Of a stretch of 64,000 nucleotides of DNA, positions 47,485-64,000 are shown in pieces. Location of the stretch: the sequence record PV636258.1, one strand, 5' to 3'. This DNA comes from a phage. Each line of letters starts with the position of its first letter. Position 1 is the first letter of the stretch. The notes beneath the pieces are model-generated. The model worked only from the letters and a program-made list of their open reading frames with translations, ran no database searches and was not told the DNA's origin. Both the position numbers and the translations under genes were made by a program.

Positions 47485-47522
47485 GATTTATTCCCTGCTG
47501 TTTCAACTCTCTGTATTATAAC

Positions 47523-49433: not shown

Positions 49434-49455
49434 AAAATACCCCCAATTTTGGGGG

Positions 49456-49463: not shown

Positions 49464-49464
49464 A

Positions 49465-49635: not shown

Positions 49636-49666
49636 AGCTAACTCCATATGGGTGTGAAGGCAAACA

Positions 49667-49674
49667 TATTTATA
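49667..49674 (-). promoter_or_regulatory. late promoter box TATAAATA
   Basis: exact T4 late consensus on minus strand upstream of small membrane ORF. Confidence 0.45.
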
Positions 49675-50092: not shown

Positions 50093-50097
50093 AGAAC

Positions 50098-50415: not shown

Positions 50416-50483
50416 GTTATAGTCCTCTATTTGTAGGGGTTGGGTATGATTTTAACATACCCGTTCAAATGGTTTAGAACAAA

Positions 50484-50948
50484 TTACAGATCTTGGCACT
50501 GATCGCAATATTCGTCGTATGTGAATGTCTCATCACACAGGCCATCACGCATCATATCGGCCTTGGCTTCGCCAAACATTTTCAGGGTGATAACGTTGCC
50601 GTCTAAATCTTTACGAAGTTCGTTCGGCTTGGTTTCTATGAAGTCGAACACCACAAAGAACCCTTCGGTGACATATTTGATGGTTTTGTTGCTCAGCTTA
50701 CGGATGCCACCATTCTTTTTGAAGATAGAGGTGCGGAGGTTTTCGAATTCAGCCAGATTGTCATCGTGATTCTTGATGGCGTTCAGCATTGCGTCAAGGT
50801 CGATTTCAGGACGAAGCATTTTGACCTGATCTTCGCGGTCATAAGAAGTGAAAGATTCTATGTTGGTGATGCCCAGAGCGTTTTTAACAAACGCGTCAAA
50901 TTTGGTGAAATTGTTGAATGCCCAGACGGAGATTTTTACGGTTGTCAT
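50484..50948 (-). CDS. hypothetical protein (154 aa)
   Basis: ATG 50948 downstream of early promoter. Confidence 0.55.
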   Translation of the reverse strand: MTTVKISVWAFNNFTKFDAFVKNALGITNIESFTSYDREDQVKMLRPEIDLDAMLNAIKNHDDNLAEFENLRTSIFKKNGGIRKLSNKTIKYVTEGFFVVFDFIETKPNELRKDLDGNVITLKMFGEAKADMMRDGLCDETFTYDEYCDQCQDL

Positions 50949-50997
50949 GATGTAGATCCTTCATTTCAGAGTCAGTGTTGTGCTGCTTATGGAATGA

Positions 50998-51025
50998 AGT
51001 ATACGGGGTTTATTGAAGAAGTAAA
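50998..51025 (-). promoter_or_regulatory. sigma70-like early promoter TTTACTtcttcaataa...TATACT
   Basis: minus strand TTTACTtcttcaataaaccccgTATACT overlapping hairpin 51004..51030. Confidence 0.5.
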
Positions 51026-51051
51026 CCCCGTTTATTGAATAAATTTTAAAT

Positions 51052-51306
51052 TTATTTGAAGCGATCAGGAAGAGTGTCGTGAACCTCAGCGCTCAGCACC
51101 AGGAACTTGCCGTCTTTAGTAGGGAAGCAGTAGTCTTTCTTGATGTGGCGCATGTGTTCAGCCGTAGCCGCTACACAGTCGTTAGTCACGTCGGTCTTCT
51201 CACCTACCCACATACTGGTTTTGGTATTCAATGTACCTTGGAAGATAGTGCCCGTCAACGGGCTTGCTCCAATCTTTTTGATTCTCATAATTTCTCCCAA
51301 GTCCAT
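51052..51306 (-). CDS. hypothetical protein (84 aa)
   Basis: ATG 51306 with AAGG SD. Confidence 0.45.
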   Translation of the reverse strand: MDLGEIMRIKKIGASPLTGTIFQGTLNTKTSMWVGEKTDVTNDCVAATAEHMRHIKKDYCFPTKDGKFLVLSAEVHDTLPDRFK

Positions 51307-51659
51307 GTTTGCGCCTTGGCTTTTCCGACTACTGGAACGTTACGGTGCATGTTTCTGAAGCTGCCTGTCTGATAAAAACAGATCCTGATGCGTTCATTTT
51401 CGGTATGCTGTGCCCAAACATGATGACCGTCTGGGTATGGGTCGTGACCAGCGCTACCTCCTTGTAGAGCTGTTTTGGTAACGACATAATGCCCTTGCAT
51501 GTAACCGAAGAATCCCTCAGGGGTGATATAACCAGAGTCCGTTTGCCAATCTCCCTTGCAATTAGAATACAAGAAATGCTTAGGCACCTGAGTTTCAATG
51601 GTCATTTCTTCTGTGAGAACGAACACATCGCCGACTTGAAGCAGTGGTAAATTGCTCAT
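51285..51659 (-). CDS. hypothetical protein (124 aa)
   Basis: ATG 51659 with GAGAG SD. Confidence 0.5.
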   Translation of the reverse strand: MSNLPLLQVGDVFVLTEEMTIETQVPKHFLYSNCKGDWQTDSGYITPEGFFGYMQGHYVVTKTALQGGSAGHDPYPDGHHVWAQHTENERIRICFYQTGSFRNMHRNVPVVGKAKAQTWTWEKL

Positions 51660-51670
51660 ATATTAATCTC

Positions 51671-52117
51671 TCACATGTTGCTGATTTTAAATAAAGTCGG
51701 AACATAGCACGGGTGTTGTTCACAGGACATGAAGGTATCAAAACGGGAACCTTTAACCAAGCCAGGCAGTTCGCCTTTCTTCAGGAGATCACGCACTAAC
51801 TCTTGCGTGTCATACCAACTTTTTGCCGGATTGGATTGGACTTCTGAAACTCGGATTTTCAACTCCCCAGTCGAATAATATTTACCGCTTTCCTTCATAT
51901 AATAAAGGTTGACGGTCAGATATTGAGGAGAATCTATTTCTTCCCAACCGTTATCAACCAAGTCTTGGCGGTCATTGTCGTGACTTTGATAATCAATGCC
52001 ACCGCTGGCCAATTTATAGCATTTGAAAATGCGAAAACCTTCGATAGGTGTATCGATGTCGCTACGAAAAAACTGGGAACGTCCTGGACTAATAAAGATA
52101 TAATTTTGTTTAGACAT
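51671..52117 (-). CDS. hypothetical protein (148 aa)
   Basis: ATG 52117 with GAGAG SD. Confidence 0.55.
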   Translation of the reverse strand: MSKQNYIFISPGRSQFFRSDIDTPIEGFRIFKCYKLASGGIDYQSHDNDRQDLVDNGWEEIDSPQYLTVNLYYMKESGKYYSTGELKIRVSEVQSNPAKSWYDTQELVRDLLKKGELPGLVKGSRFDTFMSCEQHPCYVPTLFKISNM

Positions 52118-52132
52118 GATGTAGTTCTCTCT

Positions 52133-52366
52133 TCAAAGTGATAAATGGTTGCATGAGTCTTCTTGACTTGCCAACTCCCAACGAATGATCGTGCCGTCCA
52201 TTTGGGTTATGTCGCAATTCAAATTACTTCCTGGGAGATAAAGGTCTGGCTTCAGATAATATCTCGTTTCACCGTCTTCAAATATTTTTTGAGCCGTGAA
52301 AACTTCGATTTTAGATTCCAAATAGTTCTTATCCAGATATATCTTACGGATTAGAGTCGGCATCAT
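52133..52366 (-). CDS. hypothetical protein (about 77 aa)
   Basis: ATG pair at 52366/52363; N-terminal part of track ORF overlaps neighbouring gene. Confidence 0.4.
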   Translation of the reverse strand: MMPTLIRKIYLDKNYLESKIEVFTAQKIFEDGETRYYLKPDLYLPGSNLNCDITQMDGTIIRWELASQEDSCNHLSL

Positions 52367-52538
52367 CCCACCCCCATTCGTCTTCCCAAGCCTGACGTGG
52401 AGTTTTGCCAGATTCATAATCTTCACGCCAAGCATCTGCATCAGCGGCAGAACCATGTTGAGAACGGGCAACGCGCTCTAATTCGGTATGCCATTCTGCA
52501 AAGTTGGAGTTTTCATTGTTAAGAGTTTCTTTTGCCAT
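52344..52538 (-). CDS. small acidic Trp-rich protein (64 aa)
   Basis: ATG 52538 with AGGAAT SD. Confidence 0.4.
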   Translation of the reverse strand: MAKETLNNENSNFAEWHTELERVARSQHGSAADADAWREDYESGKTPRQAWEDEWGWDDADSNP

Positions 52539-52599
52539 GAGTTGTATTCCTATTGTGAAAGTTGGGTAATGATGGTTCATTACCCATTTATTGAAAATA

Positions 52600-52914
52600 T
52601 TAACAATTATCTTTAGACTCGTTTTCACAATTTGGGTGATAAAACGTTCCCAGTTTAGTATGGATGACGTCCATGTGGGCATTGATTCTATCGATGATAT
52701 CGTCCTGCTCTCCTTGTATGTTAAGGATAGCACCAACAAGACCTGGATTGTGTGTTGATTTTTCTTCAGAATCAGATTCGGGAAATTCACCATCTAATTG
52801 TCGACGAATATTGATCACATTAGTAAGGATGTCAAAAAGACGTTCTTTTTGGGTGCGGGAATTAATGAGGATTTGTGACACGGATTGTTCAGAGGTAATA
52901 TTTCGGGTTGTCAT
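52600..52914 (-). CDS. hypothetical protein (104 aa)
   Basis: ATG 52914 with AGGAG SD. Confidence 0.5.
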   Translation of the reverse strand: MTTRNITSEQSVSQILINSRTQKERLFDILTNVINIRRQLDGEFPESDSEEKSTHNPGLVGAILNIQGEQDDIIDRINAHMDVIHTKLGTFYHPNCENESKDNC

Positions 52915-53001
52915 GACTGATACTCCTGTTGTAAGAAAGTTATATCGTACAACAGGAATTGTTATTGAACTATTCGCGTATTAAATCGTTACGATAAACA
53001 A

Positions 53002-53238
53002 TCACGTATTTTGAGAAACATATTTCAGATATGCGTATTTGTAACCTTCCTCGGTGAGTACACACAGATGTGTATCTCGACCTTTTGGTACGTTTTTAAC
53101 ATCAACTCGTTTACAAAACCCCAGGGATGCCAATTCGGCTTCTCCAGATTTAGCAGGTATTTCCCCAGCTTCACGAGGTCCAAACCAGAAAAGAACGAAT
53201 AGAGTATCGATGGCACCGCCGGATAATTGATGAGACAT
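53002..53238 (-). CDS. hypothetical protein (78 aa)
   Basis: ATG 53238 with AAGGAGG SD, just downstream of gp23 terminator. Confidence 0.5.
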   Translation of the reverse strand: MSHQLSGGAIDTLFVLFWFGPREAGEIPAKSGEAELASLGFCKRVDVKNVPKGRDTHLCVLTEEGYKYAYLKYVSQNT

Positions 53239-53284
53239 TTTAACCTCCTTTGATAAATGAGGCTTTATTATCTTACATATCCCT

Positions 53285-53311
53285 ATAAAGAAAAACCCCG
53301 CCGAAGCGGGG
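53285..53311 (-). terminator. rho-independent terminator after major capsid gene
   Basis: hairpin ccccgc-cgaa-gcgggg followed by TTTTTCTTT on minus strand; identical hairpin recurs at 59652..59667. Confidence 0.65.
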
Positions 53312-53332
53312 TTTGTTATCAAAACCTGTCGA

Positions 53333-54655
53333 TTAGAACAGAGATTTGATCAGACCTTTGCGGAAATACGGGTTGCTGTCTTGAGCAATACCGTCAGCAG
53401 TCACGTAAACCTGCGGGTCTTGGTTCGCCGGAATCTGTACGAACGGGTTAGCACAGATGCCGTAACGGGTTTTGAACGCCATACGCGGAGCGAAGGTGGT
53501 TTCACCCTGGGTGCGGTACATTTCCAGCGGCACATACGGCGCGAAGAAGATACCAGCATCCAGCGCAGTTGCGCCTTTGTATGCCAGAGTGATATATTCT
53601 GCTACAGCATACGGGTCAACATAGACGCGCATACCGTTGGACAGAACACCAGCGAAGGTCTGGCCAGTCGGGTCAACAGCCAGTTTAGTGTTTTCCTGCA
53701 GAACCGGAGCATAGTCCAGCATGCCAGACATCGCCAGAGCGGATGCCACGTTCGGAGAACACAGAACACGGTTGCCTTTACCACGACGGGTGTCAACACC
53801 GATACCGTTCGCTTCAACTTCCAGCATGAAAGTCAGGAACTTCCATTTTTCCAGCGCCCAACGACCGGAGATGTCCTGCGCGATATCAACAACACCGTTG
53901 GTACCGAATTTTTTGAAGCGAACAGCACTGAAGTTCATGGTACGGATGAATTCACGGTTCATTTCCGCCTGAATTTCAGTTACCATCACGTCAGACAGGA
54001 TATTATCCACGTCTTCGCCGTGAATCGCCATCATGTCCTGACGCAGTTCGTGGCTGTAATCAGCGTACAGGCCGCGAGACTTGGCAGTAACGGTCGCTTT
54101 CTGAACAGTGATACCAACACGCGCCCAAGGGTTGGTGGTAGTACCCAGCAGTTCAGCGTCACTTGACGGCATACCTTTACCGATAGTGGTCACGCCAGAG
54201 CCAGAACCTTCGATTTCAGCCTGACTAAAGCCAGACGGGTCGCCAGCCTGTACAGTACCATCACCGGAATAGCCGGAATCGGCTTCCTGCATGAACAGTT
54301 CTTTACGAGACTGTGCGGTGTTGGAACTGTCGCCAACGCCCTGGCGAGCGCGCAGTGCAAAGATCTGACCGTCAGGACCAGACAGCGGCTGAACACCGAA
54401 GAAGTCCATCGCGATGTTGATCGGCGCCAGACGTTTTGCCATGTCGATCAGAACTGGCTGCCATTTACCGACAGTGCTGTTCACAGAACCAGGTGCGTCA
54501 GATTCGCCCAGGTTTTTTGCGTTCCATTCAGCCTGGTTCTGCATCAGACGGATGGTTACGTTTTCGACAGACAGAGGTTGAATAGCTTCAGATTCTTTTT
54601 GGAGAACTGGCAGCCACTGTTTGCGCATTTCTTCGGTTACAAGTTTCTTAGTCAT
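53333..54655 (-). CDS. 23: major capsid protein (gp23-like)
   Basis: FFGVQPLSGPDGQIFALRAR and KTRYGICANPF blocks parallel T4 gp23; AAGGAA SD. Confidence 0.92.
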   Translation of the reverse strand: MTKKLVTEEMRKQWLPVLQKESEAIQPLSVENVTIRLMQNQAEWNAKNLGESDAPGSVNSTVGKWQPVLIDMAKRLAPINIAMDFFGVQPLSGPDGQIFALRARQGVGDSSNTAQSRKELFMQEADSGYSGDGTVQAGDPSGFSQAEIEGSGSGVTTIGKGMPSSDAELLGTTTNPWARVGITVQKATVTAKSRGLYADYSHELRQDMMAIHGEDVDNILSDVMVTEIQAEMNREFIRTMNFSAVRFKKFGTNGVVDIAQDISGRWALEKWKFLTFMLEVEANGIGVDTRRGKGNRVLCSPNVASALAMSGMLDYAPVLQENTKLAVDPTGQTFAGVLSNGMRVYVDPYAVAEYITLAYKGATALDAGIFFAPYVPLEMYRTQGETTFAPRMAFKTRYGICANPFVQIPANQDPQVYVTADGIAQDSNPYFRKGLIKSLF

Positions 54656-54746
54656 GATGCTCGTTCCTTACATTGATATTCAGTTAAGTTGAAATTACTT
54701 AGTAGTTCAAAATCAAGCCCCCTTTCGAGGGCTGTGGCTGCTAAAA

Positions 54747-55586
54747 TTAGCCGTTCAGCAAAGCACTGATCTGGCGACGGACGGCTTCGTTGACTTCTTT
54801 GCCAACTTCGTCTTTGTCATCATCGTCATCGTCATCATCGTCGGCTTCACCTTCTTTCTTCGGTTTTTTACCTTCTTTGATGTCTTTTTCAGACTTGTCG
54901 CCATCCGGCTTGCCTTTTTCATTGTCTTTGCCGACTTTATCAGAGAAGTCATCTTTGCCTTCTACCAGGTTACGGAAGGTGCGCACACGGGATTCAAATT
55001 CAGACTCGGTCTGGAATTCAATACCTTCCAGCAGGTTGACAACAGTGTCTTTCTTGGTGTCAACCATACCTTCACAAATACGATCAATGACATCATTGCG
55101 CTGGCGTTTGGTTTCACTTTCTTTGAGCTGAGCCAATTCAGTATTGGCAATGCTGGCGCGTTTCTCTGCTTCAGCCAGGCGGTTGGTGAGAGCTGCAATC
55201 TGACCGTCTGGGTCAGTGGCGAAACTAACACCTGCTTCTTTCAGAACATTAGAGAAACCAGTGAGGAAGCGTTCAGCAGCTTCGGTTTTGATCTGAGCGT
55301 CAATAGCTGGGGCATTTTTGTTAGCCCATTCTTCAACAACCGCGTTGAGGAACGAATCAACTTTTTCCGCCAACTGAAGAGTGAAATTTTCTTTAAGGTC
55401 TGCGACTTCTTTCTGGTGAGCTTCTACCAGAGTCAGGCGCTCAACGTTACCAGCCGCTTCAGTTTCTTGAATAGCTTGCAGACGGGCGGCTTCAACTTTA
55501 GATTCCAGCAGACCAGATACTTTGTCCAAGAAATCGGTGCTGAGGCCATTAACGCCTTCAAACAGTTTTTGCAATTCAGGTTTCAT
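54747..55586 (-). CDS. 22: prohead scaffold protein (gp22-like)
   Basis: alpha-helical, acidic C-terminal poly-Asp run; position between gp21 and gp23; CTAAATAC box 28 nt upstream. Confidence 0.8.
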   Translation of the reverse strand: MKPELQKLFEGVNGLSTDFLDKVSGLLESKVEAARLQAIQETEAAGNVERLTLVEAHQKEVADLKENFTLQLAEKVDSFLNAVVEEWANKNAPAIDAQIKTEAAERFLTGFSNVLKEAGVSFATDPDGQIAALTNRLAEAEKRASIANTELAQLKESETKRQRNDVIDRICEGMVDTKKDTVVNLLEGIEFQTESEFESRVRTFRNLVEGKDDFSDKVGKDNEKGKPDGDKSEKDIKEGKKPKKEGEADDDDDDDDDKDEVGKEVNEAVRRQISALLNG

Positions 55587-55614
55587 GATAGTTTCCTTCT
55601 GAACGATTTTTCAG

Positions 55615-55621
55615 TATTTAG
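55615..55621 (-). promoter_or_regulatory. late-promoter-like box CTAAATA upstream of gp22
   Basis: minus strand cactaaatactg, 28 nt before ATG 55586. Confidence 0.45.
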
Positions 55622-55632
55622 TGAGCTGAATT

Positions 55633-56301
55633 TCAGCCCAGATGATTCAATGCTGCATCAAGGCGGCGCAGGAAGTCGTCTTCTACTTGAATATTGGCTT
55701 TCACCAACTGATCAACAACGTTTCCTTTAACATCCCGAGGCATCCAAATACCAGAAGCCTCATCAAGCTGCCATTCAACAGATTCACTCACAGCCTTAAC
55801 ATAACAAACTTGTCCAGAAGGACGGTCGACTGCATCAACAGCGGTGAGCATAAAGCCAGGCTGAACGTCATCATAACCGTTTACTGACTTGGTCTCACCC
55901 AGGCCACGTGTAGACACGGCCAGATTGAAGTCTGCTTCAGCCAATGCACGTATGATTTGGCCTTTTGGTGTATTTAAAATTCGCGCCCGACCGATGGCAT
56001 TAGTGCCTTCCCAGCGAAGGGATTCGGTTTTGAGCGCTGCTTCCACCAGATTAGGGAAAGGATAGTCAGGATGTGTGACTTCACCGATTGCGCGACGATC
56101 TTGGATATACTCTTTGTCGTATGCTTCGACAGCAGGAATACCCACTTTCTGCAGATCATAGTTACGCCCGTTACGGTTGACTTGGTTACACATCACAAAC
56201 GGACCTTCGATGAACATGGCCTTCCCACCAGTTGAGGTTGTGGCCTCACCGATTTGAAGATCCTTCCCTATCGCTGTGATCTCACGCAACAGTTTCATCA
56301 T
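55633..56301 (-). CDS. 21: prohead protease (gp21-like)
   Basis: size and position as T4 gp21; GEVTHPDYP and catalytic-type Ser/His regions; AAGGAG SD. Confidence 0.85.
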   Translation of the reverse strand: MMKLLREITAIGKDLQIGEATTSTGGKAMFIEGPFVMCNQVNRNGRNYDLQKVGIPAVEAYDKEYIQDRRAIGEVTHPDYPFPNLVEAALKTESLRWEGTNAIGRARILNTPKGQIIRALAEADFNLAVSTRGLGETKSVNGYDDVQPGFMLTAVDAVDRPSGQVCYVKAVSESVEWQLDEASGIWMPRDVKGNVVDQLVKANIQVEDDFLRRLDAALNHLG

Positions 56302-56308
56302 AAACTCC

Positions 56309-56626
56309 TTACTTGTTCTTACTCAGTCCCATCATTTTGCGGAACTTCATAGCCTTTTTCTTACGACGCTCGATTTTACGTTGATAGCCCATTCCCATAC
56401 GCTTTTTAGAGCGGAGGGCTTTGCGGTTGCCGATCTTGCGAACACGACGTTCGCTGGCATCCATGACTTCACAACGTGAACCATCAGCCGACAATTTGAA
56501 CCCAGGGGCACATTTCAGACGGCGGCGGCGTTTACCACGAGCGTTCACTTTATCGATGACTCGCTGCTCGTCCATACGAGAGGCCAGGAAATCAGCGAAC
56601 GTGGCGATCTCTGTGATTTCCATCAT
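56309..56626 (-). CDS. prohead core protein-like (very basic C-terminus)
   Basis: position between portal and protease as T4 gp67/gp68; Arg/Lys-rich tail; AAGGAG SD. Confidence 0.45.
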   Translation of the reverse strand: MMEITEIATFADFLASRMDEQRVIDKVNARGKRRRRLKCAPGFKLSADGSRCEVMDASERRVRKIGNRKALRSKKRMGMGYQRKIERRKKKAMKFRKMMGLSKNK

Positions 56627-56634
56627 GCATCTCC

Positions 56635-56805
56635 TTACTGGCCGTTGTTGTTTGAATTCATATCAGCTGCGATAGAATCCAGAACATATGCTGTGCCTTG
56701 GTTTAATAGTTCTTGACTACGTGCATCAAGTTCCATGTTGCATTCTGCAACAGCAGTTTCAGTGTCACCGTCAATTACTGCACGAACGATATCAATTGCG
56801 CTCAT
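56635..56805 (-). CDS. small acidic protein (56 aa), possible prohead core component
   Basis: ORF below track cutoff found by hand: ATG 56805 with GGAGAT SD and CTAAATAT box 27 nt upstream. Confidence 0.35.
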   Translation of the reverse strand: MSAIDIVRAVIDGDTETAVAECNMELDARSQELLNQGTAYVLDSIAADMNSNNNGQ

Positions 56806-56832
56806 GATTTTGATCTCCGAATTAATTTTCTA

Positions 56833-56839
56833 TATTTAG
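56833..56839 (-). promoter_or_regulatory. late-promoter-like box CTAAATA
   Basis: minus strand aactaaatatag immediately after portal stop. Confidence 0.4.
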
Positions 56840-56846
56840 TTGAACT

Positions 56847-58529
56847 TTAAATACTATCGTCTGTTGAACCGGAGAATGGGATAGTCTCAGGTTTAAACTT
56901 CAACGGACTAACATCTGAACCGCTATAATTGCCAGTTTCATCTGCTTGAACCTTCGGATAGAGACCTTTCTTCTTCTCTTCCGCGATCTTCGTTTGTTGT
57001 TCTTTAACTTCTTCATCAGACATACGCAATACATTTCTCATGACGTAGTCTATGGAGAAAATGGAACCAACGAATGGCTCAACAGTGTTCAATGAAGCCA
57101 GACGATCATTCAAGATAGCGTTTTCTTGTTGTTCACGAATGTAACTATCTGATGTGAATTCAAACTTTATAAACGGTTTGATCTTCTCATTCCAATCCTT
57201 TTCATCCGTAACGCCTTTCAAAATTAACTGGCGGCGCAAGAATTCCATAAAGAAATGGGAGTAACGGCGTCGTAACCCAGCACAGAACTTGCTGAAGCGC
57301 AGCTCTTCCTGTGTAATCTCCGCAAGGTTAGAACCCCCAATGTTAATGGAACCTTCTTCCTGAAGACGGCTCTTGGGGATCATCAGTGCATCATAGAGTT
57401 TTTCACGGAAATAATTCACATGGTCCATTTCACCCAATTGATTCCCACCACCAACAGTTGCAATTTCTGTGGCGTTTTGGCCTTCACGACGAGGCAACCA
57501 ATAATCTTCTGCAATCCCCATGAGGTGGGCGTTGCCTGTAATTTTACCAGTGGTCCTGTCGTATGCATTACGGTTTTTGAATTTACCCATCATCATAGTC
57601 ATGTATTCTTCAGCAGATTTCTTGCCGAGAGTACCGACGTCGAGATAGAATGCGCGTTTCTCGGGGGCACGAGTGATGGCATAAATTACTGTTGCGTCTT
57701 CAGTCGTAACCAAGTTGTTCAACGGACGGATTGCAGGATTTAAAAGCCCTGGGACAATACCGTTAGCCAATGGTTCTTCACCACTATCGATATAAACGAT
57801 ACTTTCATCATCAAACACGAGTTCTTGTTGTGAAGGTTGGAAGTTTTGAGAAGTACCTGATTGACCAGTGAATTGATTCCGGTTGTAATTCGGATTGTAA
57901 TAGTATTTCAGCGTTACAGATTCGATCGCTTCTATACCACCTTCACGCATTGCCTTTTCAACGATGTACACAGGACGAATACAACGAGAATCCAGCATGA
58001 CCAATTTCTTGATCCCACCCTTCTTATTCGTTGGGTCAACAATCACATGATACGCTTGTCGACCATCTACATACCATTTCCGAATTTTTTGATACGCCGT
58101 ATTTTCAAAATCCATCAAATGAATCACTTCTTTGAAACATTCGGTGATAGATTCTTTGACTGATTCAGAAATACCATCAACTTTGTCAAGATTGACTGTC
58201 ACCGGAGTTTCGTCTTCCTCACATGTGACAACGTCATTAACAATGATGTCCACAGCTTTGCGTATTTCTGGCTGCTGGGCCATGGACTGATATTCTTCCA
58301 CAACTGTTTTAACGCTGAGAAGTTCACTCTCAACGCCAACATAGTTGTAGGTGTTTGCACCGCCCTGAAGGATTATAGAACCGTCTTGAGCATCGTCCAG
58401 AGCAACAACTGTCGCCTTGGTGAGCAACAATTCATCTTGTTTTTGGGCTAACTTATCGGTGTCGACTTTGGCATTGACTAAACCGCCGCCACCAAACAAA
58501 CCGAAGAACCCTCTGCCGTATCCAGCCAT
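56847..58529 (-). CDS. 20: portal vertex protein (gp20-like)
   Basis: 560 aa; position upstream of prohead core/protease/scaffold/capsid; GAGGAC SD. Confidence 0.88.
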   Translation of the reverse strand: MAGYGRGFFGLFGGGGLVNAKVDTDKLAQKQDELLLTKATVVALDDAQDGSIILQGGANTYNYVGVESELLSVKTVVEEYQSMAQQPEIRKAVDIIVNDVVTCEEDETPVTVNLDKVDGISESVKESITECFKEVIHLMDFENTAYQKIRKWYVDGRQAYHVIVDPTNKKGGIKKLVMLDSRCIRPVYIVEKAMREGGIEAIESVTLKYYYNPNYNRNQFTGQSGTSQNFQPSQQELVFDDESIVYIDSGEEPLANGIVPGLLNPAIRPLNNLVTTEDATVIYAITRAPEKRAFYLDVGTLGKKSAEEYMTMMMGKFKNRNAYDRTTGKITGNAHLMGIAEDYWLPRREGQNATEIATVGGGNQLGEMDHVNYFREKLYDALMIPKSRLQEEGSINIGGSNLAEITQEELRFSKFCAGLRRRYSHFFMEFLRRQLILKGVTDEKDWNEKIKPFIKFEFTSDSYIREQQENAILNDRLASLNTVEPFVGSIFSIDYVMRNVLRMSDEEVKEQQTKIAEEKKKGLYPKVQADETGNYSGSDVSPLKFKPETIPFSGSTDDSI

Positions 58530-58596
58530 GATCTAAGTCCTCAACATTTTCTTGTAATTAGTGAGGGGGAATAACATTCCCCCAGCACCGAGGACA

Positions 58597-59130
58597 TTAC
58601 AATGACTTGTCAGAAACGGCTTGGAAATAACGCAAGTCGACAGTGAACTGTGTGTAAGAGTCCATTGCCGACATATCGAGTTCCAGTTGGCCGAGGTTTT
58701 GAGGCCAGCCGCCCTGTAAAGTCCATGTCTTAGTCACGTTGTCATTCGCGTCCAGAAGTTCCATGATGATATCACGGAAATAATCATCTGGATTCGCGCT
58801 GGCGCGGTTGTTTTCACTACCGTTGATGAATTGCTGCCACACTTCAAAAGCATTGTATGGAGCGTTGTTCACCACGTTAATGAACGTCACAGGAAGCGCT
58901 TCGAAACGACGATCCCCTGGGAACGGAAGTTCACGACCACCCCAGGGCACCAGAATTTCGCCCAGCTGACCTGTTGGGGTGTTGGTGGTTACAGCCAGCA
59001 AGGACACGTCACGAATTGTGTCGGAACCAGCAACAAAAGAAGGAAAGTTTACAGTCACACGCCAGCGGTGTTGGCGTTGTACGCCGCCCCCTCGTGACAT
59101 GGCTGCGCGAAACTCATTGACTGTCGCCAT
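58597..59130 (-). CDS. 19: tail tube protein (gp19-like)
   Basis: 177 aa immediately downstream of sheath gene region; GGAGAT SD. Confidence 0.8.
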   Translation of the reverse strand: MATVNEFRAAMSRGGGVQRQHRWRVTVNFPSFVAGSDTIRDVSLLAVTTNTPTGQLGEILVPWGGRELPFPGDRRFEALPVTFINVVNNAPYNAFEVWQQFINGSENNRASANPDDYFRDIIMELLDANDNVTKTWTLQGGWPQNLGQLELDMSAMDSYTQFTVDLRYFQAVSDKSL

Positions 59131-59160
59131 TTTTATATCTCCAAATAAGAGTACACAATT

Positions 59161-59619
59161 CTAATTAGTCGTCAATCTTTTAATCTTCATGGAAGAAAAA
59201 TCAAATCCGTGGTCAACATTGCTTAAAACGGGTTCGATTTCACACAATTCCCAACGGGGATCTATGAGAGAAACAAGACCAATGTGTTCACCTGTGGATG
59301 TCAATTTTGCTGCAGTTTTACCCAGCATATGACTTCCATCATTACCGCCTTTATTCATGTTGTAACCCATCTCATAAGAATTATATTGAGCGATGAGTTG
59401 CTTCTCTAATTCCCATTTATGGACTTCATCGGTCTGAGCAATTACAACGAAAGTAAATCCAGATGTTCCATACTTACGCATAGCATCATACAATTCACTT
59501 TGGACTCCATGATGAAAAGCATTCGCAAAATGCTGATCATATCTTCGTTGTGGGTGATTGGTCACACCGATGTAGACCTTTCCATTAGTTATCGTTTCAA
59601 TTTTGTATGCGTATATCAT
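59161..59619 (-). CDS. GIY-YIG homing endonuclease (free-standing, between genes 18 and 19)
   Basis: N-terminal IYAYKIETITNGKVYIGVT...RRYDQH GIY-YIG motif. Confidence 0.8.
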   Translation of the reverse strand: MIYAYKIETITNGKVYIGVTNHPQRRYDQHFANAFHHGVQSELYDAMRKYGTSGFTFVVIAQTDEVHKWELEKQLIAQYNSYEMGYNMNKGGNDGSHMLGKTAAKLTSTGEHIGLVSLIDPRWELCEIEPVLSNVDHGFDFSSMKIKRLTTN

Positions 59620-59640
59620 TCAATAACTCAAATCAATAAG

Positions 59641-59667
59641 ACAAAGGAAAACCCCGCCGAAGCGGGG
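59641..59667 (-). terminator. rho-independent terminator after tail sheath gene
   Basis: hairpin ccccgc-cgaa-gcgggg followed by TTTTCCTTTG on minus strand. Confidence 0.65.
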
Positions 59668-59675
59668 TTGGTCAT

Positions 59676-61571
59676 TTATGAAGCAGCAACGATGCCGCCA
59701 CCGGATTCGATTTCCGAGAATTCCATGTCCGGACGAACGGCAGCAAAGTCAAGATACACCCAATTTATGCTGTATTCCGGTTTCAACCAAATGCCTGCAA
59801 CCATTTGGTTTGCCGCAATGACATCAGCAGTGTTGTTGTCTTCATCACATTTGACTTTACCATCGTAAATCGCGCCCATATTTGCCAGCTGGCGAATATA
59901 TGGACGAACCGCATTGCTGAACAGACCACGTGTAAACGCGTCATTGTTCTCACCAAGATAGTATTTGGCGATTGCGGCGATGTTCTGCTCAGCCATGATG
60001 AACAGACCACGAACGTTGATGCGGTCAAACGCCGACGGGCGGGTCAAGCCAGTTTTGTCACCATACAGGACGATGCCTTCATTGGAGAAGGTTACGATGC
60101 TGTTGATCTGATTGCGGTACAACACAGCACGTTCATCAGAAGACGCGGACCACGCCATTCGATTATAGTTGTTGTATTTACCACGGTTGTGGAACGCCGG
60201 AGATTTGTAGATACCCGCGATTTCAATGCTTCGCGCCCAAACACCTGCGGTGCCACCACAAGCCGGAATCCAACGCATTTTGTCGTTGTACTTGTCGTAC
60301 ACGTATGCCCAGTTATCATCCATGAAGAAATAAGAAGAGTCGCGAACAAGGCTTTCACGCCAAGCAACGACATCATCCATTTCACGACCACGGTTGCCAA
60401 CAACCGTATCACGGAGCGGGGATACGAAAGATACGGTATCTTTTCGCTCAGTAGATAAGTCGATCAATGCTTGTTGCTCAATCAGTTCTTCACAGTACGC
60501 AAATACTGGCTTCGCATCATATGCTTCAGCGTTGTTCAAGACTTGGATAGCTGCCACGCGGTTGATGTTATAATCGTCTACGCCGCCTTCTAATTCAACG
60601 ACACCTGCTACCAGTTCACTCGCGAAGGTATACACCCAATTTGAAGTATCGTTGATCACGTCTTTGAAGTACGCATTCGCACCATCGGATTTTTTAGAAC
60701 CCTGGGTATTCTGCATCAGTTCGTATTTTTCAATGATGGAACCAGAAGCGCCAACAGTAGTGATTACGGCTGTTGCAGTCAGTCCTTTATCATCAGGAAC
60801 GATAGCTGTAACGGCCTGAGGACCGATAGCTTTATGGGTCACGATGACAGTGTTGGACTTCACGACAACAGAAGAATAAACACTTGTCAGGGAAGTCAGC
60901 GCTGTACCGATTTTGGTTGCCAAAGTGGCTGGAGTATCAGTATCCAGATATGCGATATCTTCACCCGCCACACTGATGGTGCCAGCAGCAGTAGCCGTAC
61001 CAGAAACGGAGATACGGTCAACCTGACCGACCGCGCCAGCAGAGTCGGTAATGCGACCAACTTTGTCTACGACAACTACATGGAATTCACCAGACTGAGG
61101 TGCGTATGCAAAGTTATTACGGAATTCCCAAGTCGAGAACCCAGCAGCATCACAAACATTGATAGCAATATCATTGCCCAGGGAACCTGGATAACGACCA
61201 GTCCAAGTGATGGACGCCGAAGGACTTGCTGTTTCAAAATCCAGTTTGTTTTTGATCGCAATCGCTGTCTGACCTTTGGTAACAGAGTTCTTGGCTAGAG
61301 GACCAACAACACGGGTCACCCATGCCATAGAGCTGTAAGACAAAAAGTCCGCGATTACGAGAAAATCGGTCGCAGTACTGTCGTTGGGTTTGAAGAATTT
61401 CTTCACCAAACCTGTCTCACCACCAGTCACCAGCACTGGAAGTTCAACTTCACCCCATTGAAATTTGCCGACGGTCGCGCCCTGAACAACAACGGACGGA
61501 GACGTCTGAAGCGTGGCATCACGCTCAGTCCACTGAACGGACGGCGCAACGCTGAAGCTTTGAGTTGCCAT
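59676..61571 (-). CDS. 18: tail sheath protein (gp18-like)
   Basis: 631 aa; ATG 61571 with GAAGGAA SD; track start is non-ATG; CTAAATAT box upstream. Confidence 0.9.
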   Translation of the reverse strand: MATQSFSVAPSVQWTERDATLQTSPSVVVQGATVGKFQWGEVELPVLVTGGETGLVKKFFKPNDSTATDFLVIADFLSYSSMAWVTRVVGPLAKNSVTKGQTAIAIKNKLDFETASPSASITWTGRYPGSLGNDIAINVCDAAGFSTWEFRNNFAYAPQSGEFHVVVVDKVGRITDSAGAVGQVDRISVSGTATAAGTISVAGEDIAYLDTDTPATLATKIGTALTSLTSVYSSVVVKSNTVIVTHKAIGPQAVTAIVPDDKGLTATAVITTVGASGSIIEKYELMQNTQGSKKSDGANAYFKDVINDTSNWVYTFASELVAGVVELEGGVDDYNINRVAAIQVLNNAEAYDAKPVFAYCEELIEQQALIDLSTERKDTVSFVSPLRDTVVGNRGREMDDVVAWRESLVRDSSYFFMDDNWAYVYDKYNDKMRWIPACGGTAGVWARSIEIAGIYKSPAFHNRGKYNNYNRMAWSASSDERAVLYRNQINSIVTFSNEGIVLYGDKTGLTRPSAFDRINVRGLFIMAEQNIAAIAKYYLGENNDAFTRGLFSNAVRPYIRQLANMGAIYDGKVKCDEDNNTADVIAANQMVAGIWLKPEYSINWVYLDFAAVRPDMEFSEIESGGGIVAAS

Positions 61572-61613
61572 AATATCATTCCTTCTCGGTAGAGTTTCGC
61601 TCAATTTGAAAGA

Positions 61614-61620
61614 TATTTAG
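61614..61620 (-). promoter_or_regulatory. late-promoter-like box CTAAATA upstream of gp18
   Basis: minus strand cactaaatatc between terminase stop and sheath start. Confidence 0.45.
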
Positions 61621-61623
61621 TGA

Positions 61624-63834
61624 TCAATTCTTAAACCACTCATCCATGGTCATCCCTGACATTTCGTTGAAAACTTGAATACCCCCGAAACCAGGCAAAT
61701 GCTCAGTTTCGGATGGGGTGTCTCCAACGACTAAACCGCCAAATGGGAATACCTGCTGAGATTCAGTTGAAGACATTCGGTTTCTCATGTCCTGAGAAAT
61801 ACTTGTAGACGTCAAGTCACTGAACCATTCTTGTTTTACCGCCCATGAATATAAGACCAACGGCATGACACAGTCATCGTGACAACCGTCATCGGCTTCA
61901 TACCGAGCGCCTTTGAACACAAATGTACTGAGTTCATCTATCGTGTCCTGGTCTTCTATCACCAACATTTCTTTCTCAATGAGCGCTTTCAAGTTAGCAC
62001 AACCGATAGATCGGACTTTTCTGTTGGTATTGATACCAGGTTCCGGTTTACGCCCACCAATCCGTTTCCCCGTCCCTTTGTTATCTGTTGATGTGAATAT
62101 GATTTCTGGATATTCTATCTCTTGATAAAGAATTGTAATAACCTGACCGCCGACGTCGTTGTTTGTTTCAACAAGGACAGGACATTCCCCGTATTCGGTG
62201 CACATATCAGCTATCGTGTATGCATACATCATAGGAGGTATCGTATTATTCCTGTACTTGGCTGCTATGACATGCGGATATTCAGTTATATCCAGAATTG
62301 TTAAGACGGAATAATCTCCTTCCACTCCCTTCCCAGTGTCCGCAATCCCAAAGTAGAGACGTTGTGGGTCGTATTCCTTATAAATCTTGGTGAATTCATT
62401 AGGTTCCCGATACAACTTGGACGTCATTTTATCTAAGCATTTGGCCGGAATCAATGAACCCACGGAACCACGGAACTTAATGCCAAATTCTTGATCGAAA
62501 CGAGCATCCCCCAGACGGGCACGTTGTTTGGTTTCCCAATCTGGATCTTTGGTATATGCCGGAACCTTATACCATGGGACTTCAGTTAGGTGGAAGTCGT
62601 TGTATTGTGGATGGCGTGGATCTGCTTTGGTGACAATATCATAGAACAACCCTCGCTGGCCTTTCGGAGTACTTGTCAAAATACAGCGTGATGTATCGGC
62701 AGATGCAATGGCTGGGAAAGTTGATTCCCAAAATTCAAAGTCGTTTTCGATAAACGCGACTTCGTCAACATACAAGAGCGATACAGAACGACCACGGATG
62801 GAGTCCGAAGACGTGGCATAAGCGTATATCTTAGAACCATTCTCAAACTCTATCAGGGTAGAACCAAACTTCTCACAACCCTGCTGAAGGAAGAATGGAA
62901 GGTCTTGGTATGCCTTTCTGATACGATCAAGAATTTCTATCGCTTGTTTCTCTTTGTTTGCCAGTACTGCGATTTCCTTATCAGAATGGAACATCGCGTA
63001 CCAAAGAAGAAACGCCGCCACCACGGTCGTGTTATGACTGAGAAAGCCATTCGTGTAATAACGTTGATCACTAGATTTGACCTGCAGATCGTACATATGG
63101 TGATATTCACCAGTCTGCCAAATCTCACGGATTTCTTCTGGACCTTCTGTCGTCATGATGTATGACCCAGCATTCAGGTCTTTGGCAAATATCTCCTTCA
63201 TGTCCGAAGTGAAGAACATATGTTCATCGGCCACGTTAATTCGCCTTCCGGTAACGGTGACAATAACGAATTCCGCATATTTCTTCGTCTTATGCGCTGC
63301 GATAACCGGAACCCAGCCACTATCGGATTGTACAAAGTAACGTTTGCCGAAGCGGCTGTCCACGAACTTGTCATGGTTGCCAATGGTATTCAGCGGCACA
63401 GCGTGGTTGACGTCCTCGAAGCGGCTGTGAAGCTCCCCTATGGTCAGGAGCAACTCCTCTTGGCTGAGAGTATCGTAAACTGTGACAAGCGTGTCGCCTT
63501 TTACACATTTTCCAGACTGACGAGCCTGGACGACCGCATTAAATCGATAGTCCTGAAAGTCATGGAACAACTGTTTCTGATAATCATGCATATCGAAAAG
63601 GATAAAGCCTTTATCGATCGTGGTTATCTTGTAATAGTTGGCGGCGAAGTAGTGTGCATCCATAGAACATTCAACGAATTCGTCTTCTTGTTCATCTGTC
63701 AGCATTAACTCGACTCGAGGAGCACGCACAGAAGGTTTGCGCATAAACGTTTGGTCCATACGCAATTTCACATCGTCTATTTTGAACCCCGTTTTAATTG
63801 GGGCATATTCTATATCACGCTTCTGATACGCCAT
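61624..63834 (-). CDS. 17: terminase large subunit (gp17-like) interrupted by an in-frame mini-intein
   Basis: 736 aa; Walker A region VVQARQSGK / TT split by insertion; C-terminal nuclease region colinear with T4-type terminases. Confidence 0.9.
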   Translation of the reverse strand: MAYQKRDIEYAPIKTGFKIDDVKLRMDQTFMRKPSVRAPRVELMLTDEQEDEFVECSMDAHYFAANYYKITTIDKGFILFDMHDYQKQLFHDFQDYRFNAVVQARQSGKCVKGDTLVTVYDTLSQEELLLTIGELHSRFEDVNHAVPLNTIGNHDKFVDSRFGKRYFVQSDSGWVPVIAAHKTKKYAEFVIVTVTGRRINVADEHMFFTSDMKEIFAKDLNAGSYIMTTEGPEEIREIWQTGEYHHMYDLQVKSSDQRYYTNGFLSHNTTVVAAFLLWYAMFHSDKEIAVLANKEKQAIEILDRIRKAYQDLPFFLQQGCEKFGSTLIEFENGSKIYAYATSSDSIRGRSVSLLYVDEVAFIENDFEFWESTFPAIASADTSRCILTSTPKGQRGLFYDIVTKADPRHPQYNDFHLTEVPWYKVPAYTKDPDWETKQRARLGDARFDQEFGIKFRGSVGSLIPAKCLDKMTSKLYREPNEFTKIYKEYDPQRLYFGIADTGKGVEGDYSVLTILDITEYPHVIAAKYRNNTIPPMMYAYTIADMCTEYGECPVLVETNNDVGGQVITILYQEIEYPEIIFTSTDNKGTGKRIGGRKPEPGINTNRKVRSIGCANLKALIEKEMLVIEDQDTIDELSTFVFKGARYEADDGCHDDCVMPLVLYSWAVKQEWFSDLTSTSISQDMRNRMSSTESQQVFPFGGLVVGDTPSETEHLPGFGGIQVFNEMSGMTMDEWFKN
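63031..63507 (-). mobile_element. mini-intein (about 159 aa) inserted in terminase P-loop
   Basis: insertion begins CVKGDTLV (Cys1) and ends FLSHN followed by Thr +1; interrupts GK|T of Walker A. Confidence 0.75.
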
Positions 63835-64000
63835 CGTCTTCTTCCTTCACATCAACTGTTTCACCATCAATGATTTCATCTTCTGGTTGTTGTGCGGCCT
63901 TTGCTTGTGCTCTTTCTTCAGCGCGACGACGGGCATCTTCAATCGTCTTCAATAAATCGCGAGAAGATCGCGCCTTTTTCCCAACCGATACTGTTGTTGT
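63815..64000 (-). CDS. partial CDS, probable terminase small subunit C-terminus
   Basis: open frame running off window end; stop TGA at 63817..63815 overlaps gp17 start as in T4 gene 16/17. Confidence 0.4.
   Translation of the reverse strand, partial: TTTVSVGKKARSSRDLLKTIEDARRRAEERAQAKAAQQPEDEIIDGETVDVKEEDDGVSEA

What the first reader, a model, noticed from the sequence alone, without database searches (positions are those of the whole stretch)
63031..63507. Mini-intein in the Walker A P-loop of the large terminase
The gp17-like ORF is about 160 aa longer than expected. An in-frame insert starts with Cys (CVKGDTLV) and ends with His-Asn followed by Thr, splitting the Walker A lysine from the following threonine (QSGK|intein|TT). 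Its size suggests a Hint-only mini-intein without an endonuclease domain. Splicing would be obligatory for packaging ATPase activity.
Basis: partly seen in the sequence, partly recalled or inferred. Interest (0 to 1): 0.68.

Follow-up and report, generated by a model that had tools for sequence, protein, structure and literature searches.

The report
Known mini-intein in phage terminase P-loop

Summary
The ORF at 61624..63834 (-) encodes a 736-aa T4 gp17-type large terminase. Residues 110-268 (window 63031..63507) are an in-frame insert, CVKGDTLV...FLSHN, between the Walker A Lys and Thr (ARQSGK|intein|TTVVAAF).

It is a genuine class-1 mini-intein:
- Pfam Intein_splicing scores above its curated cut-off on the excised segment.
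- An AlphaFold model (pLDDT 95.5) has solved inteins and intein-like HINT domains as all of its top 50 PDB matches.
- Cys1, the block-B His, the block-F Asp, the terminal His-Asn and the +1 Thr are invariant across 24 homologues.
- Removing the insert gives a gap-free alignment to T4 gp17 (SRQLGKTTVVAIFL).
- Erwinia phage Bue1, from the same family, and metagenomic relatives have the uninterrupted RQSGKTTVVAAFLLWYA.
- No endonuclease domain is present.

It is already known. Genome announcements for phages Marshall and Maynard (2013), Mooltan and Magnus (2019) report it. The Mooltan and Magnus GenBank records annotate an intein mat_peptide with the same boundaries. K|T in the P-loop is the "classic" intein site.

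Small additions from this work: the intein seems fixed in enterobacterial Ackermannviridae; it is under purifying selection; and it shows mosaic gene-conversion tracts between lineages. Splicing itself is inferred, not shown.

The parts
61624..63834 (-). TerL precursor CDS (736 aa, 84.5 kDa; stop codon included), a T4 gp17-type large terminase
   Evidence: ORF list. Pfam Terminase_6N and Terminase_6C match. The protein is 100% identical to TerL of Salmonella phages SJ3, PM10 and dinky, and 99.9% to CBA120.
63508..63834 (-). N-extein (aa 1-109), ending in the first part of Walker A, ARQSGK
   Evidence: It aligns to T4 gp17 up to K of SRQLGK.
63031..63507 (-). Class-1 mini-intein, 159 aa (18.3 kDa), HINT domain only, no endonuclease
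   Evidence: Coordinates are. Pfam PF14890 scores 37.1 bits against a cut-off of 35.8. The AF2 model has pLDDT 95.5. All top 50 Foldseek PDB matches are solved inteins or intein-like HINT (BIL) domains; the best is VidaL 6vgv at E=1.3e-12. A family HMM matches only this site in the window.
63505..63507 (-). Block A catalytic Cys1 (protein C110); the only Cys in the intein
   Evidence: Invariant in the 24-sequence alignment.
63220..63231 (-). Block B motif ADEH (intein A93-D94-E95-H96). The His is invariant, and Ala replaces the usual Thr of TxxH.
   Evidence: Translation. A93, D94 and H96 are invariant across 24 homologues. VidaL has AFNH at the aligned place.
63031..63096 (-). Blocks F and G: MYDLQVKSSDQRYYTNGFLSHN, with D140, the penultimate H158 and the terminal N159
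   Evidence: Translation. M138, D140, T152, L156, S157, H158 and N159 are invariant. Gln148 replaces the His seen in non-Ackermannviridae relatives.
63028..63030 (-). +1 nucleophile Thr (protein T269), which is the Walker A Thr of GKT
   Evidence: It aligns to the Thr of GKT in T4 gp17's SRQLGKT after in-silico splicing.
61624..63030 (-). C-extein (aa 269-736, plus stop): the rest of the ATPase domain and the RNaseH-like nuclease domain
   Evidence: Pfam Terminase_6N and 6C. Alignment to T4 gp17 3ezk residues 85-563.

Best explanation
Window 63031..63507 (-) encodes a canonical class-1 mini-intein: a HINT splicing domain without a homing endonuclease. It is inserted between Lys and Thr of the Walker A P-loop (GK|T) of the large terminase of a Kuttervirus (Ackermannviridae).

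The gene is translated as an 84.5-kDa precursor in which the ATP-binding loop is broken. The intein then excises itself in four steps:
1. An N-to-S acyl shift at Cys1.
2. Transesterification to the hydroxyl of Thr+1.
3. Cyclisation of the terminal Asn159, assisted by His158, the block-B His96 and the block-F Asp140.
4. An O-to-N shift that creates a normal Lys-Thr peptide bond.

This yields the 66.2-kDa active TerL with an intact ARQSGKTT P-loop and a free 18.3-kDa intein.

What is shown here: the anatomy, the fold, the catalytic residues, the exact indel, purifying selection and the distribution. What is inferred from the well-studied intein mechanism: the chemical steps and the need for splicing.

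The element has no endonuclease of its own. It looks fixed in the enterobacterial Ackermannviridae genera, and it is still shuffled between lineages by homologous recombination.
For: - Exact coordinates and junction sequences.
- Profile match: Pfam Intein_splicing E=3.4e-9, 37.1 bits against a cut-off of 35.8 on the excised segment. PDB sequence hits are only inteins: CatC, VidaL, CDC21, gp41-1 and Mxe GyrA.
- Fold: an AF2 model built from a 24-sequence alignment has mean pLDDT 95.5 and pTM 0.87. All top 50 Foldseek PDB matches are solved inteins or intein-like HINT (BIL) domains; the best is VidaL 6vgv with E=1.3e-12 and TM 0.75/0.82.
- Catalytic residues: C1, A93-D94-x-H96, D140 and S157-H158-N159 are invariant across 24 homologues that are only 29-79% identical. 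The +1 residue is Thr, or Ser in one case.
- Host restored: the spliced sequence aligns gap-free to T4 gp17 through the P-loop, E=1.4e-76.
- Intein-less alleles carry identical flanks, RQSGK|TTVVAAFLLWYA. They occur in Erwinia phage Bue1 (Ackermannviridae, 78% identical), P0015 (84-85%), P0016-P0019 and Vibrio phages.
- Selection: intein pN 0.143 against pS 0.766 versus phage Mooltan. This is purifying selection, but looser than in the exteins (pN 0-0.01, pS 0.54-0.57).
- Occurrence: the insert is present in about 280 deposited phage genomes at 60% identity or more. These are viable phages, so TerL must be functional.
- Independent annotation: an intein mat_peptide with the same boundaries is annotated in Mooltan and Magnus, and the intein is reported for Marshall and Maynard.
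- The K|T site in the P-loop is described as the 'classic' intein site (PMC5050341).
Against: - No experimental evidence of splicing for this intein was found in the searchable literature. The virion proteomics paper gives no junction peptide.
- On the full-length protein the Pfam intein hit (30.5 bits) is below the 35.8-bit cut-off.
- Two departures from the textbook consensus occur: Ala instead of Thr in block B (ADEH), and Gln148 where relatives have the block-F His. Neither position is universally required, but they could slow some steps.
- Thr is a less common +1 nucleophile than Cys or Ser.
Confidence: 0.93

Rival explanations
1. The intein does more than parasitise the gene. Splicing is conditional (on temperature, redox state, substrate or assembly state) and acts as a post-translational timer or switch for the packaging ATPase.
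For: - The intein sits in the catalytic P-loop, so unspliced TerL should be inactive (inference).
- It seems fixed in enterobacterial Ackermannviridae and is under purifying selection.
- Kelley et al. discuss such roles for ATPase inteins (PMC5050341).
Against: - Fixation and purifying selection are equally expected for a parasite that cannot be deleted imprecisely from an essential motif.
- The intein has a single Cys (Cys1), so an internal disulfide trap like those of known redox-regulated inteins is impossible.
- The related Erwinia and Vibrio phages do without it.
- No data on splicing kinetics exist.
Confidence: 0.07
2. The segment is a degenerate, non-splicing HINT domain that stays in the mature terminase as an inserted domain.
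For: - There is no direct proof of splicing.
- Block B and block F each carry one non-consensus residue.
Against: - All residues needed for the four splicing steps are invariant over homologues down to 29% identity.
- A 159-aa domain between the K and T of GKT would break the phosphate-binding loop.
- Intein-less relatives have the uninterrupted loop.
- pN/pS is about 0.19, which shows the intein sequence itself is maintained.
Confidence: 0.03
3. It is a bacterial intein-like (BIL) or other HINT module that only cleaves, producing two terminase fragments rather than a ligated protein.
For: BIL2 structures appear among the fold matches, at ranks 39-48. Pfam PT-HINT gives a weak hit, E=0.0065 and below its cut-off.
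Against: - Genuine inteins score better than the BIL structures in the fold search.
- The segment has the His-Asn C-terminus, a +1 Thr nucleophile and a position inside a conserved catalytic motif. These are intein features, not BIL features.
- Cleavage without ligation would leave the P-loop broken.
Confidence: 0.02
4. It is an assembly or annotation artefact, or a nucleic-acid-level element such as an intron that happens to read in frame.
For: None found.
Against: - The same 477-nt in-frame segment is present in about 280 independently sequenced genomes.
- Its substitution pattern is that of a protein-coding sequence.
- No Rfam family, including intron families, reaches threshold anywhere in the window.
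Confidence: 0.01

Closest known systems
TerL intein of Kuttervirus/Taipeivirus phages Marshall, Maynard, Mooltan and Magnus (Genome Announc 2013, PMC3853055 and PMC3868846; MRA 2019, PMC6486243 and PMC6763660; GenBank MH688040, MN045230)
   Same: It is the same element at the same site. Mooltan and Magnus both annotate an intein mat_peptide that starts 109 codons into a 2211-nt TerL CDS and is 477 nt long. The Marshall/Maynard intein is 79% identical over 159 aa. About 90 phage records carry it at 95% identity or more.
   Different: The window carries the CBA120/SJ3-type allele. It is 78.6% identical in protein and 72.7% in DNA to the Mooltan-type allele, while the exteins are 99% identical in protein. 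Most GenBank records of this allele, such as CBA120 and SPTD1, annotate only 'terminase large subunit' without the intein.
Mycobacteriophage TerL1-a P-loop inteins (Kelley et al. 2016, mBio, PMC5050341)
   Same: [quoted passage not shown] The paper calls this the 'classic' P-loop insertion.
   Different: The host protein belongs to a different TerL family (terminase_1 rather than terminase_6/gp17). I tested no sequence relationship between the inteins. In that paper the TerL6 intein sits in the C-motif, not the P-loop, and some mycobacteriophage TerL inteins have active endonucleases. This one has none.
Homologous P-loop inteins in other T4-like TerL proteins (Vibrio phage VAP7; Campylobacter phages CP20, CP21 and IBB_35; metagenomic P0020-P0027, P0050, P0062, P0067 and others)
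   Same: They occupy the same K|T site and share the same block signatures: C-x-x-x-(D/N)T, CADDH, MYDLQV and HRYYTNGILSHN|TT. They are 30-41% identical. An intein in the Campylobacter phage TerL was reported in 2012 (PMC3322345).
   Different: They differ in size (150-183 aa) and in their loops. They keep a His where the Ackermannviridae clade has Gln148. In Campylobacter phage IBB_35 the gene also contains an intron with an HNH endonuclease.
VidaL intein (PDB 6vgv), the closest solved structure
   Same: HINT fold, with TM-score 0.75 (query-normalised) and 0.82 (target-normalised). It also has Ala in place of the block-B Thr (AFNH against ADEH), and its C-terminal block is similar: RYYGDGIVSH against RYYTNGFLSH.
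   Different: It is only 20% identical. From my own recollection, not checked here, VidaL is described as a naturally split intein; this one is contiguous.
T4 gp17 (PDB 3ezk, 3cpe, 2o0h), the intein-less reference terminase
   Same: After in-silico splicing the protein aligns to gp17 residues 85-563 at E=1.4e-76, with the Walker A sequence SRQLGKTTVVAIFL against ARQSGKTTVVAAFL.
   Different: T4 gp17 has no intein. The N- and C-terminal ends differ.

Membership tests
Intein (class 1), HINT superfamily | HINT (Hedgehog/intein) horseshoe beta fold | tested here: met
   The AF2 model has pLDDT 95.5 and pTM 0.87. All top 50 Foldseek PDB matches are solved inteins or intein-like HINT (BIL) domains, with E down to 1.3e-12.
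Intein (class 1), HINT superfamily | Profile match to a curated intein family above its cut-off | tested here: met
   Pfam PF14890 Intein_splicing scores 37.1 bits against a cut-off of 35.8 (E=3.4e-9) on the excised 160-aa segment. On the full precursor it scores 30.5 bits, below the cut-off.
Intein (class 1), HINT superfamily | Block A: Cys or Ser as the first intein residue (the class-1 nucleophile) | tested here: met
   Cys1 is protein C110. It is invariant in 24 homologues.
Intein (class 1), HINT superfamily | Block B TxxH motif, with the conserved His | tested here: met
   The motif is ADEH. H96 is invariant. The Thr position is an invariant Ala in this family, as in VidaL. This is a tolerated variant rather than the consensus.
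Intein (class 1), HINT superfamily | Blocks F and G: block-F Asp, penultimate His, terminal Asn | tested here: met
   The sequence is MYDLQV...SHN. D140, H158 and N159 are invariant. The second block-F His is Gln148 in this clade.
Intein (class 1), HINT superfamily | +1 extein residue is Cys, Ser or Thr | tested here: met
   Thr269 follows Asn268. The +1 residue is Thr, or Ser in one case (P0098), in the homologues whose C-terminal junction was parsed.
Intein (class 1), HINT superfamily | Precise in-frame insertion relative to intein-less homologues, at a conserved site of the host protein | tested here: met
   There is a residue-exact 159-aa gap in Bue1, P0015, P0016 and Vibrio phage K440. 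The spliced sequence aligns gap-free to T4 gp17 through Walker A.
Intein (class 1), HINT superfamily | Autocatalytic excision with ligation of the exteins | not testable with these tools
   No experimental report was found. It is inferred from phage viability and the conserved catalytic residues.
Mini-intein (no homing endonuclease) | No LAGLIDADG, HNH or other endonuclease domain between blocks B and F; size about 130-200 aa | tested here: met
   It is 159 aa. The model is a single HINT domain with no low-confidence segment. Pfam at E up to 10 gave no endonuclease family.
Homing (endonuclease-bearing, autonomously mobile) intein | An embedded homing endonuclease domain | tested here: not met
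   None was found. Among the best 120 TerL relatives, the large variants at this site (420-447 aa) also give no Pfam endonuclease hit.
Large terminase, T4 gp17 / Terminase_6 family (host protein) | N-terminal ATPase with Walker A G-K-T/S, plus a C-terminal RNaseH-like nuclease | tested here: met
   On the spliced sequence Terminase_6N scores 77.5 bits against a cut-off of 22. Terminase_6C scores 21.7 bits, just below its cut-off of 22.6. T4 gp17 3ezk matches at E=1.4e-76 over both domains, with GKT restored.
Bacterial intein-like (BIL) domain | A HINT domain in variable or secreted proteins, not at conserved catalytic sites, and usually without the intein-type His-Asn plus +1 nucleophile pair | tested here: not met
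   The segment lies inside Walker A and has HN|T. BIL2 structures rank below genuine inteins in the fold search.

The most novel reading that the evidence does not exclude
This may be an endonuclease-less intein family that is nevertheless still mobile. Alleles move between Ackermannviridae lineages as short gene-conversion tracts: a 227-nt patch in phage LPST94, and a tract of about 480 nt in fGh-Ecl02. They might be mobilised in trans by free-standing GIY-YIG (Seg-like) endonucleases encoded next to or inside terminase genes. That would be 'collaborative homing' of an intein, by analogy with intron plus free-standing endonuclease pairs. A second, less likely reading is that splicing is conditional and times the onset of DNA packaging.
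Probability: 0.12. Interest if true: 0.45.

Novelty: already known. Interest (0 to 1): 0.12.

Why it matters
Practically, it matters little, because this is a correct re-discovery.
- **Annotation:** most GenBank records of this allele, including the reference phage CBA120, call the 736-aa product simply 'terminase large subunit'. TerL is a standard phylogenetic marker, so the intein should be removed before building trees. The recombinant tracts inside it would otherwise mislead them.
- **Protein engineering:** it is a compact 159-aa intein with a single Cys that naturally splices at a Lys/Thr-Thr junction. That could be of modest interest as a tool, but its activity is untested.
- **Evolution:** the mosaic alleles show that an endonuclease-less intein can still be exchanged among co-infecting phages. 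This is a small addition to what is known about the intein life cycle.

Tried and rejected
- **First structure prediction:** with only two sequences the model had pLDDT 51 and was unusable. I repeated it with 24 trimmed homologues.
- **Homologue search with the intein alone:** The search for homologous proteins returned only two proteins. The search with the full precursor was needed to get the family.
- **An endonuclease in larger relatives:** I looked for one in the 420-447 aa inteins at the same site (P0054, P0058, P0065). Pfam found none, and the extra about 270-290 aa is a charged, low-complexity stretch. So I have no evidence that this mini-intein derives from a homing-endonuclease-bearing ancestor.
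- **Two Kuttervirus alleles as proof of horizontal transfer:** I considered that the two intein alleles (78.6% identical in protein, with 99% identical exteins) proved transfer, and rejected it as proof. Synonymous divergence is high in the exteins too (pS 0.54-0.57 against 0.77), so relaxed constraint on the intein explains most of the contrast. Only the LPST94 and fGh-Ecl02 tracts are clear recombination signals.
- **Experimental evidence of splicing:** I searched the literature and a Vi01-like phage proteomics paper and found none.
- **VidaL:** I searched for the origin of the VidaL intein and did not pursue it.
- **Other elements in the window:** there are no further inteins of this family, no tRNAs and no Rfam families.
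- **Not run:** the 1.84-billion-protein representative search. The verdict did not depend on it.
Full report
**1. The observation**

The window's last complete gene is an ORF at 61624..63834 on the minus strand, 736 aa long. In its product the string CVKGDTLV begins at residue 110 and FLSHN ends at residue 268. This 159-aa segment maps to window 63031..63507, exactly the coordinates given. Direct translations of the two junctions read QARQSGK|CVKGDTLV and FLSHN|TTV.

**2. Where the sequence comes from**

The protein is 100% identical to the large terminase of Salmonella phages vB-SalM-SJ3, PM10, dinky and others, and 99.9% identical to that of E. coli O157 phage CBA120. The surrounding 24 kb is 97-99% identical to Kuttervirus genomes (Ackermannviridae). 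It has the T4-like order: small terminase, large terminase, sheath, a GIY-YIG endonuclease, tube, portal.

**3. Is the host protein a terminase, and is the insert in the P-loop?**

- On the full protein, Pfam finds Terminase_6N only downstream of the insert (residues 269-460). It also finds a sub-threshold Intein_splicing hit inside the insert.
- When the 159 aa are removed in silico, the Terminase_6N score rises from 60 to 77.5 bits and now starts upstream of the junction.
- The 577-aa product matches T4 gp17 (PDB 3ezk, 3cpe) at E=1.4e-76 over both the ATPase and nuclease domains. There is no gap at the junction: ARQSGKTTVVAAFL against T4 SRQLGKTTVVAIFL.

**4. Is the insert an intein?**

- *Profile.* The excised segment scores 37.1 bits (E=3.4e-9) against Pfam Intein_splicing, above the curated 35.8-bit cut-off. 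The only solved proteins it hits by sequence are inteins: CatC, VidaL, a CDC21 intein, gp41-1 and Mxe GyrA.
- *Fold.* A first AlphaFold run with two sequences was poor, with pLDDT 51. A second run used 24 homologous inteins trimmed from TerL relatives and gave pLDDT 95.5 and pTM 0.87, with no low-confidence segment.
- *Fold search.* Foldseek against the PDB returned only solved inteins and intein-like HINT (BIL) domains among the top 50. VidaL (6vgv) was best, at E=1.3e-12 and TM 0.75/0.82.
- *Catalytic residues.* In the 24-sequence alignment, whose members are 29-79% identical to the window intein, these columns are invariant: Cys1; Ala93-Asp94-x-His96 (block B, ADEH here); Met138 and Asp140 (block F); and Ser157-His158-Asn159 (block G). 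The next residue is Thr, or Ser in one case (P0098), in the homologues whose C-terminal junction was parsed.
- *Departures from the textbook motifs.* There are two. Ala replaces Thr in block B, as also seen in VidaL (AFNH). Gln148 sits where non-Ackermannviridae relatives have His (DQRYY against DHRYY).
- *No endonuclease.* The whole 159 aa belongs to the HINT domain, and Pfam at E up to 10 lists no endonuclease family.

**5. Do relatives lack it?**

Yes, and the boundaries are exact.

- Among the best 120 TerL relatives in the 5.8-billion-protein database, P0015 (576 aa, 84-85% identical in the exteins) and P0016-P0019 (575-581 aa, 74-77% identical) read RQSGK|TTVVAAFLLWYA with no insert.
- In a multiple alignment, Erwinia phage vB_EamM-Bue1 (Ackermannviridae, genus Nezavisimistyvirus, TerL 580 aa, 78% identical), P0015, P0016 and Vibrio phage K440 show a clean 159-column gap.
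- I searched the phage collection with a 28-aa peptide spanning the spliced junction. It can only match uninterrupted genes. The closest hits were Erwinia phages Bue1 and phiEa2809 (88.9%) and then Vibrio phages. No record matched at 90% or more, so no Kuttervirus, Taipeivirus, Limestonevirus or Agtrevirus genome in the collection has an intein-less allele.
- Conversely, the intein itself is found at 60% identity or more in about 280 records, from phages of Salmonella, Escherichia, Klebsiella, Dickeya, Serratia, Shigella and Enterobacter.
- More distant T4-like terminases carry homologous inteins at the same K|T site, 30-41% identical and 150-183 aa long. Examples are Vibrio phage VAP7, Campylobacter phages CP20 and CP21, and many metagenomic proteins.
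- This sporadic distribution at one conserved site is the usual signature of an intein.

**6. Is it maintained?**

- Against phage Mooltan, the intein has pN 0.143 and pS 0.766. The exteins have pN 0-0.01 and pS 0.54-0.57.
- The intein is thus under purifying selection (pN/pS about 0.19), but much less tightly than the terminase. This explains why the intein is 78.6% identical in protein while the exteins are 99% identical.
- The intein's third-position GC is 56%, against 45-47% in the exteins.

**7. Recombination**

- *LPST94.* Phage LPST94 has a TerL gene that differs from the window's at only 11 of 1981 positions outside a 227-nt patch, but at 70 of 227 positions inside it. The patch is CDS nt 571-797, window 63038..63264, and lies wholly inside the intein. 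Within the patch LPST94 is identical to Mooltan at 227 of 227 positions.
- *fGh-Ecl02.* Enterobacter phage fGh-Ecl02 differs from the window at 23.4% of TerL positions overall. In a tract covering the last about 90 nt of the N-extein and most of the intein (CDS nt 241-720, window 63115..63594) it differs at only 4.4% (Fisher p=1e-25). Intein dS is 0.30, against 1.17 or saturation in the exteins.
- The intein alleles are therefore exchanged between lineages by homologous recombination, even though the intein encodes no endonuclease.
- A free-standing GIY-YIG gene (SegD-like, Pfam E=1e-10) lies about 2 kb downstream of TerL at 59161..59619. I have no evidence that it is involved.

**8. Mechanism**

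- The anatomy is that of a class-1 intein. The best-supported mechanism is the canonical four-step pathway: an N-S acyl shift at Cys1, transesterification to Thr+1, Asn159 cyclisation, and an O-N shift.
- This converts the 84.5-kDa precursor into a 66.2-kDa TerL with an intact GKT loop and an 18.3-kDa free intein (masses).
- These steps are inferred from intein biochemistry, not shown here.
- That splicing is required for packaging follows from the position of the insert and from the essential role of Walker A in gp17.
- The intein has a single Cys. That excludes an internal disulfide switch and lowers, but does not exclude, the idea of regulated splicing.

**9. Comparison with what is known**

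- The same intein was reported in the genome announcements of Salmonella phages Marshall and Maynard in 2013. [quoted passage not shown]
- It was reported again for Mooltan and for Klebsiella phage Magnus in 2019.
- The GenBank records of Mooltan and Magnus annotate an intein mat_peptide 109 codons into the CDS and 477 nt long, which are the boundaries found here.
- The protein database holds a separate 'intein [Salmonella phage Maynard/Marshall]' entry that is 79% identical.
- More generally, terminases are described as a common intein target. K|T in the P-loop is described as the 'classic' insertion point. Terminase_6 inteins are tabulated among bacterial prophages (PMC5050341 and PMC4760082).
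- The finding is therefore a correct re-discovery of a known element.
- Not found in the papers I could search: the allele mosaicism, the apparent fixation in the enterobacterial genera with absence in Nezavisimistyvirus, and the Gln148 substitution. These are small increments.

**10. Verdict**

- Observation: confirmed.
- Interpretation: supported.
- Novelty: already known.
- Interest: low (0.12).
- Main open point: nobody appears to have shown splicing of this particular intein experimentally.

Noticed in passing
window 59161..59619 (-): A free-standing 152-aa GIY-YIG homing-endonuclease gene lies between the tail sheath and tail tube genes, about 2 kb downstream of TerL. Pfam GIY-YIG gives E=1e-10, and CBA120 and SPTD1 annotate it as SegD-like. 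It is a possible trans-acting driver of local gene conversion, but I did not test that.
   Followed up: partly
L005 (Salmonella phage LPST94) 2674-4884; corresponds to window 63038..63264: LPST94 TerL is window-type, with 11 differences in 1981 nt, except for a 227-nt patch inside the intein. The patch is 100% identical to the Mooltan-type allele and differs from the window at 70 of 227 positions. This is a clean gene-conversion tract between two intein alleles.
   Followed up: yes
L004 (Enterobacter phage fGh-Ecl02) 2674-4884; corresponds to window 63115..63594: A tract of about 480 nt covers the end of the N-extein and most of the intein. It is 95.6% identical to the window, while the rest of TerL is 76.6% identical. 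Intein dS is 0.30, against more than 1 in the exteins. This indicates a recent lateral exchange of the intein between divergent lineages.
   Followed up: yes
window 63064..63066 (-), intein residue Gln148: In the Ackermannviridae clade the block-F position that is His in nearly all other homologues at this site (DHRYY) is Gln (DQRYY), or Ala in P0014. This may affect the rate of Asn cyclisation.
   Followed up: no
P0054, P0058, P0065 (metagenomic TerL proteins, 948-987 aa): These carry large inteins (420-447 aa) at the same K|T site. The extra about 270-290 aa lies between block A and the rest of the N-terminal splicing region. It is a charged, low-complexity stretch with no Pfam endonuclease hit, so its nature is unclear: a disordered insert, or a mis-called nested element.
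   Followed up: partly
P0052, P0061, P0063 (Vibrio phage VP-1 TerL, 738 aa), P0081, P0094: These are TerL-like proteins in which a GIY-YIG (SegE-like) domain follows the ATPase domain. P0052 and P0063 were scanned: both also carry the P-loop intein, and neither has a Terminase_6C hit. This suggests terminase genes split by, or fused to, a homing endonuclease gene.
   Followed up: no
window 63031..63507 compared with 61627..63030 and 63508..63834: The intein has a higher GC3 (56.0%) than the N-extein (46.8%) and the C-extein (44.7%). The whole window has 45.0% GC.
   Followed up: no
window 63815..63834 (-): The small-terminase ORF overlaps the start of TerL by 20 nt, as annotated in CBA120, SPTD1 and Mooltan. 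The small-terminase gene runs off the end of the window.
   Followed up: no
GenBank MN871475.1 (hits H21 and H165): A record named 'Pseudomonas phage Pa-sanjiao' (host P. aeruginosa PAO1) has a TerL that is 99.9% identical, and it is 97.7% identical to the window over 24 kb. It looks like a Kuttervirus, so the host label is doubtful.
   Followed up: no
window 1..64000: No tRNA genes (ARAGORN) and no Rfam family at gathering threshold occur anywhere in the window. No second intein of this family was found in a six-frame scan.
   Followed up: yes
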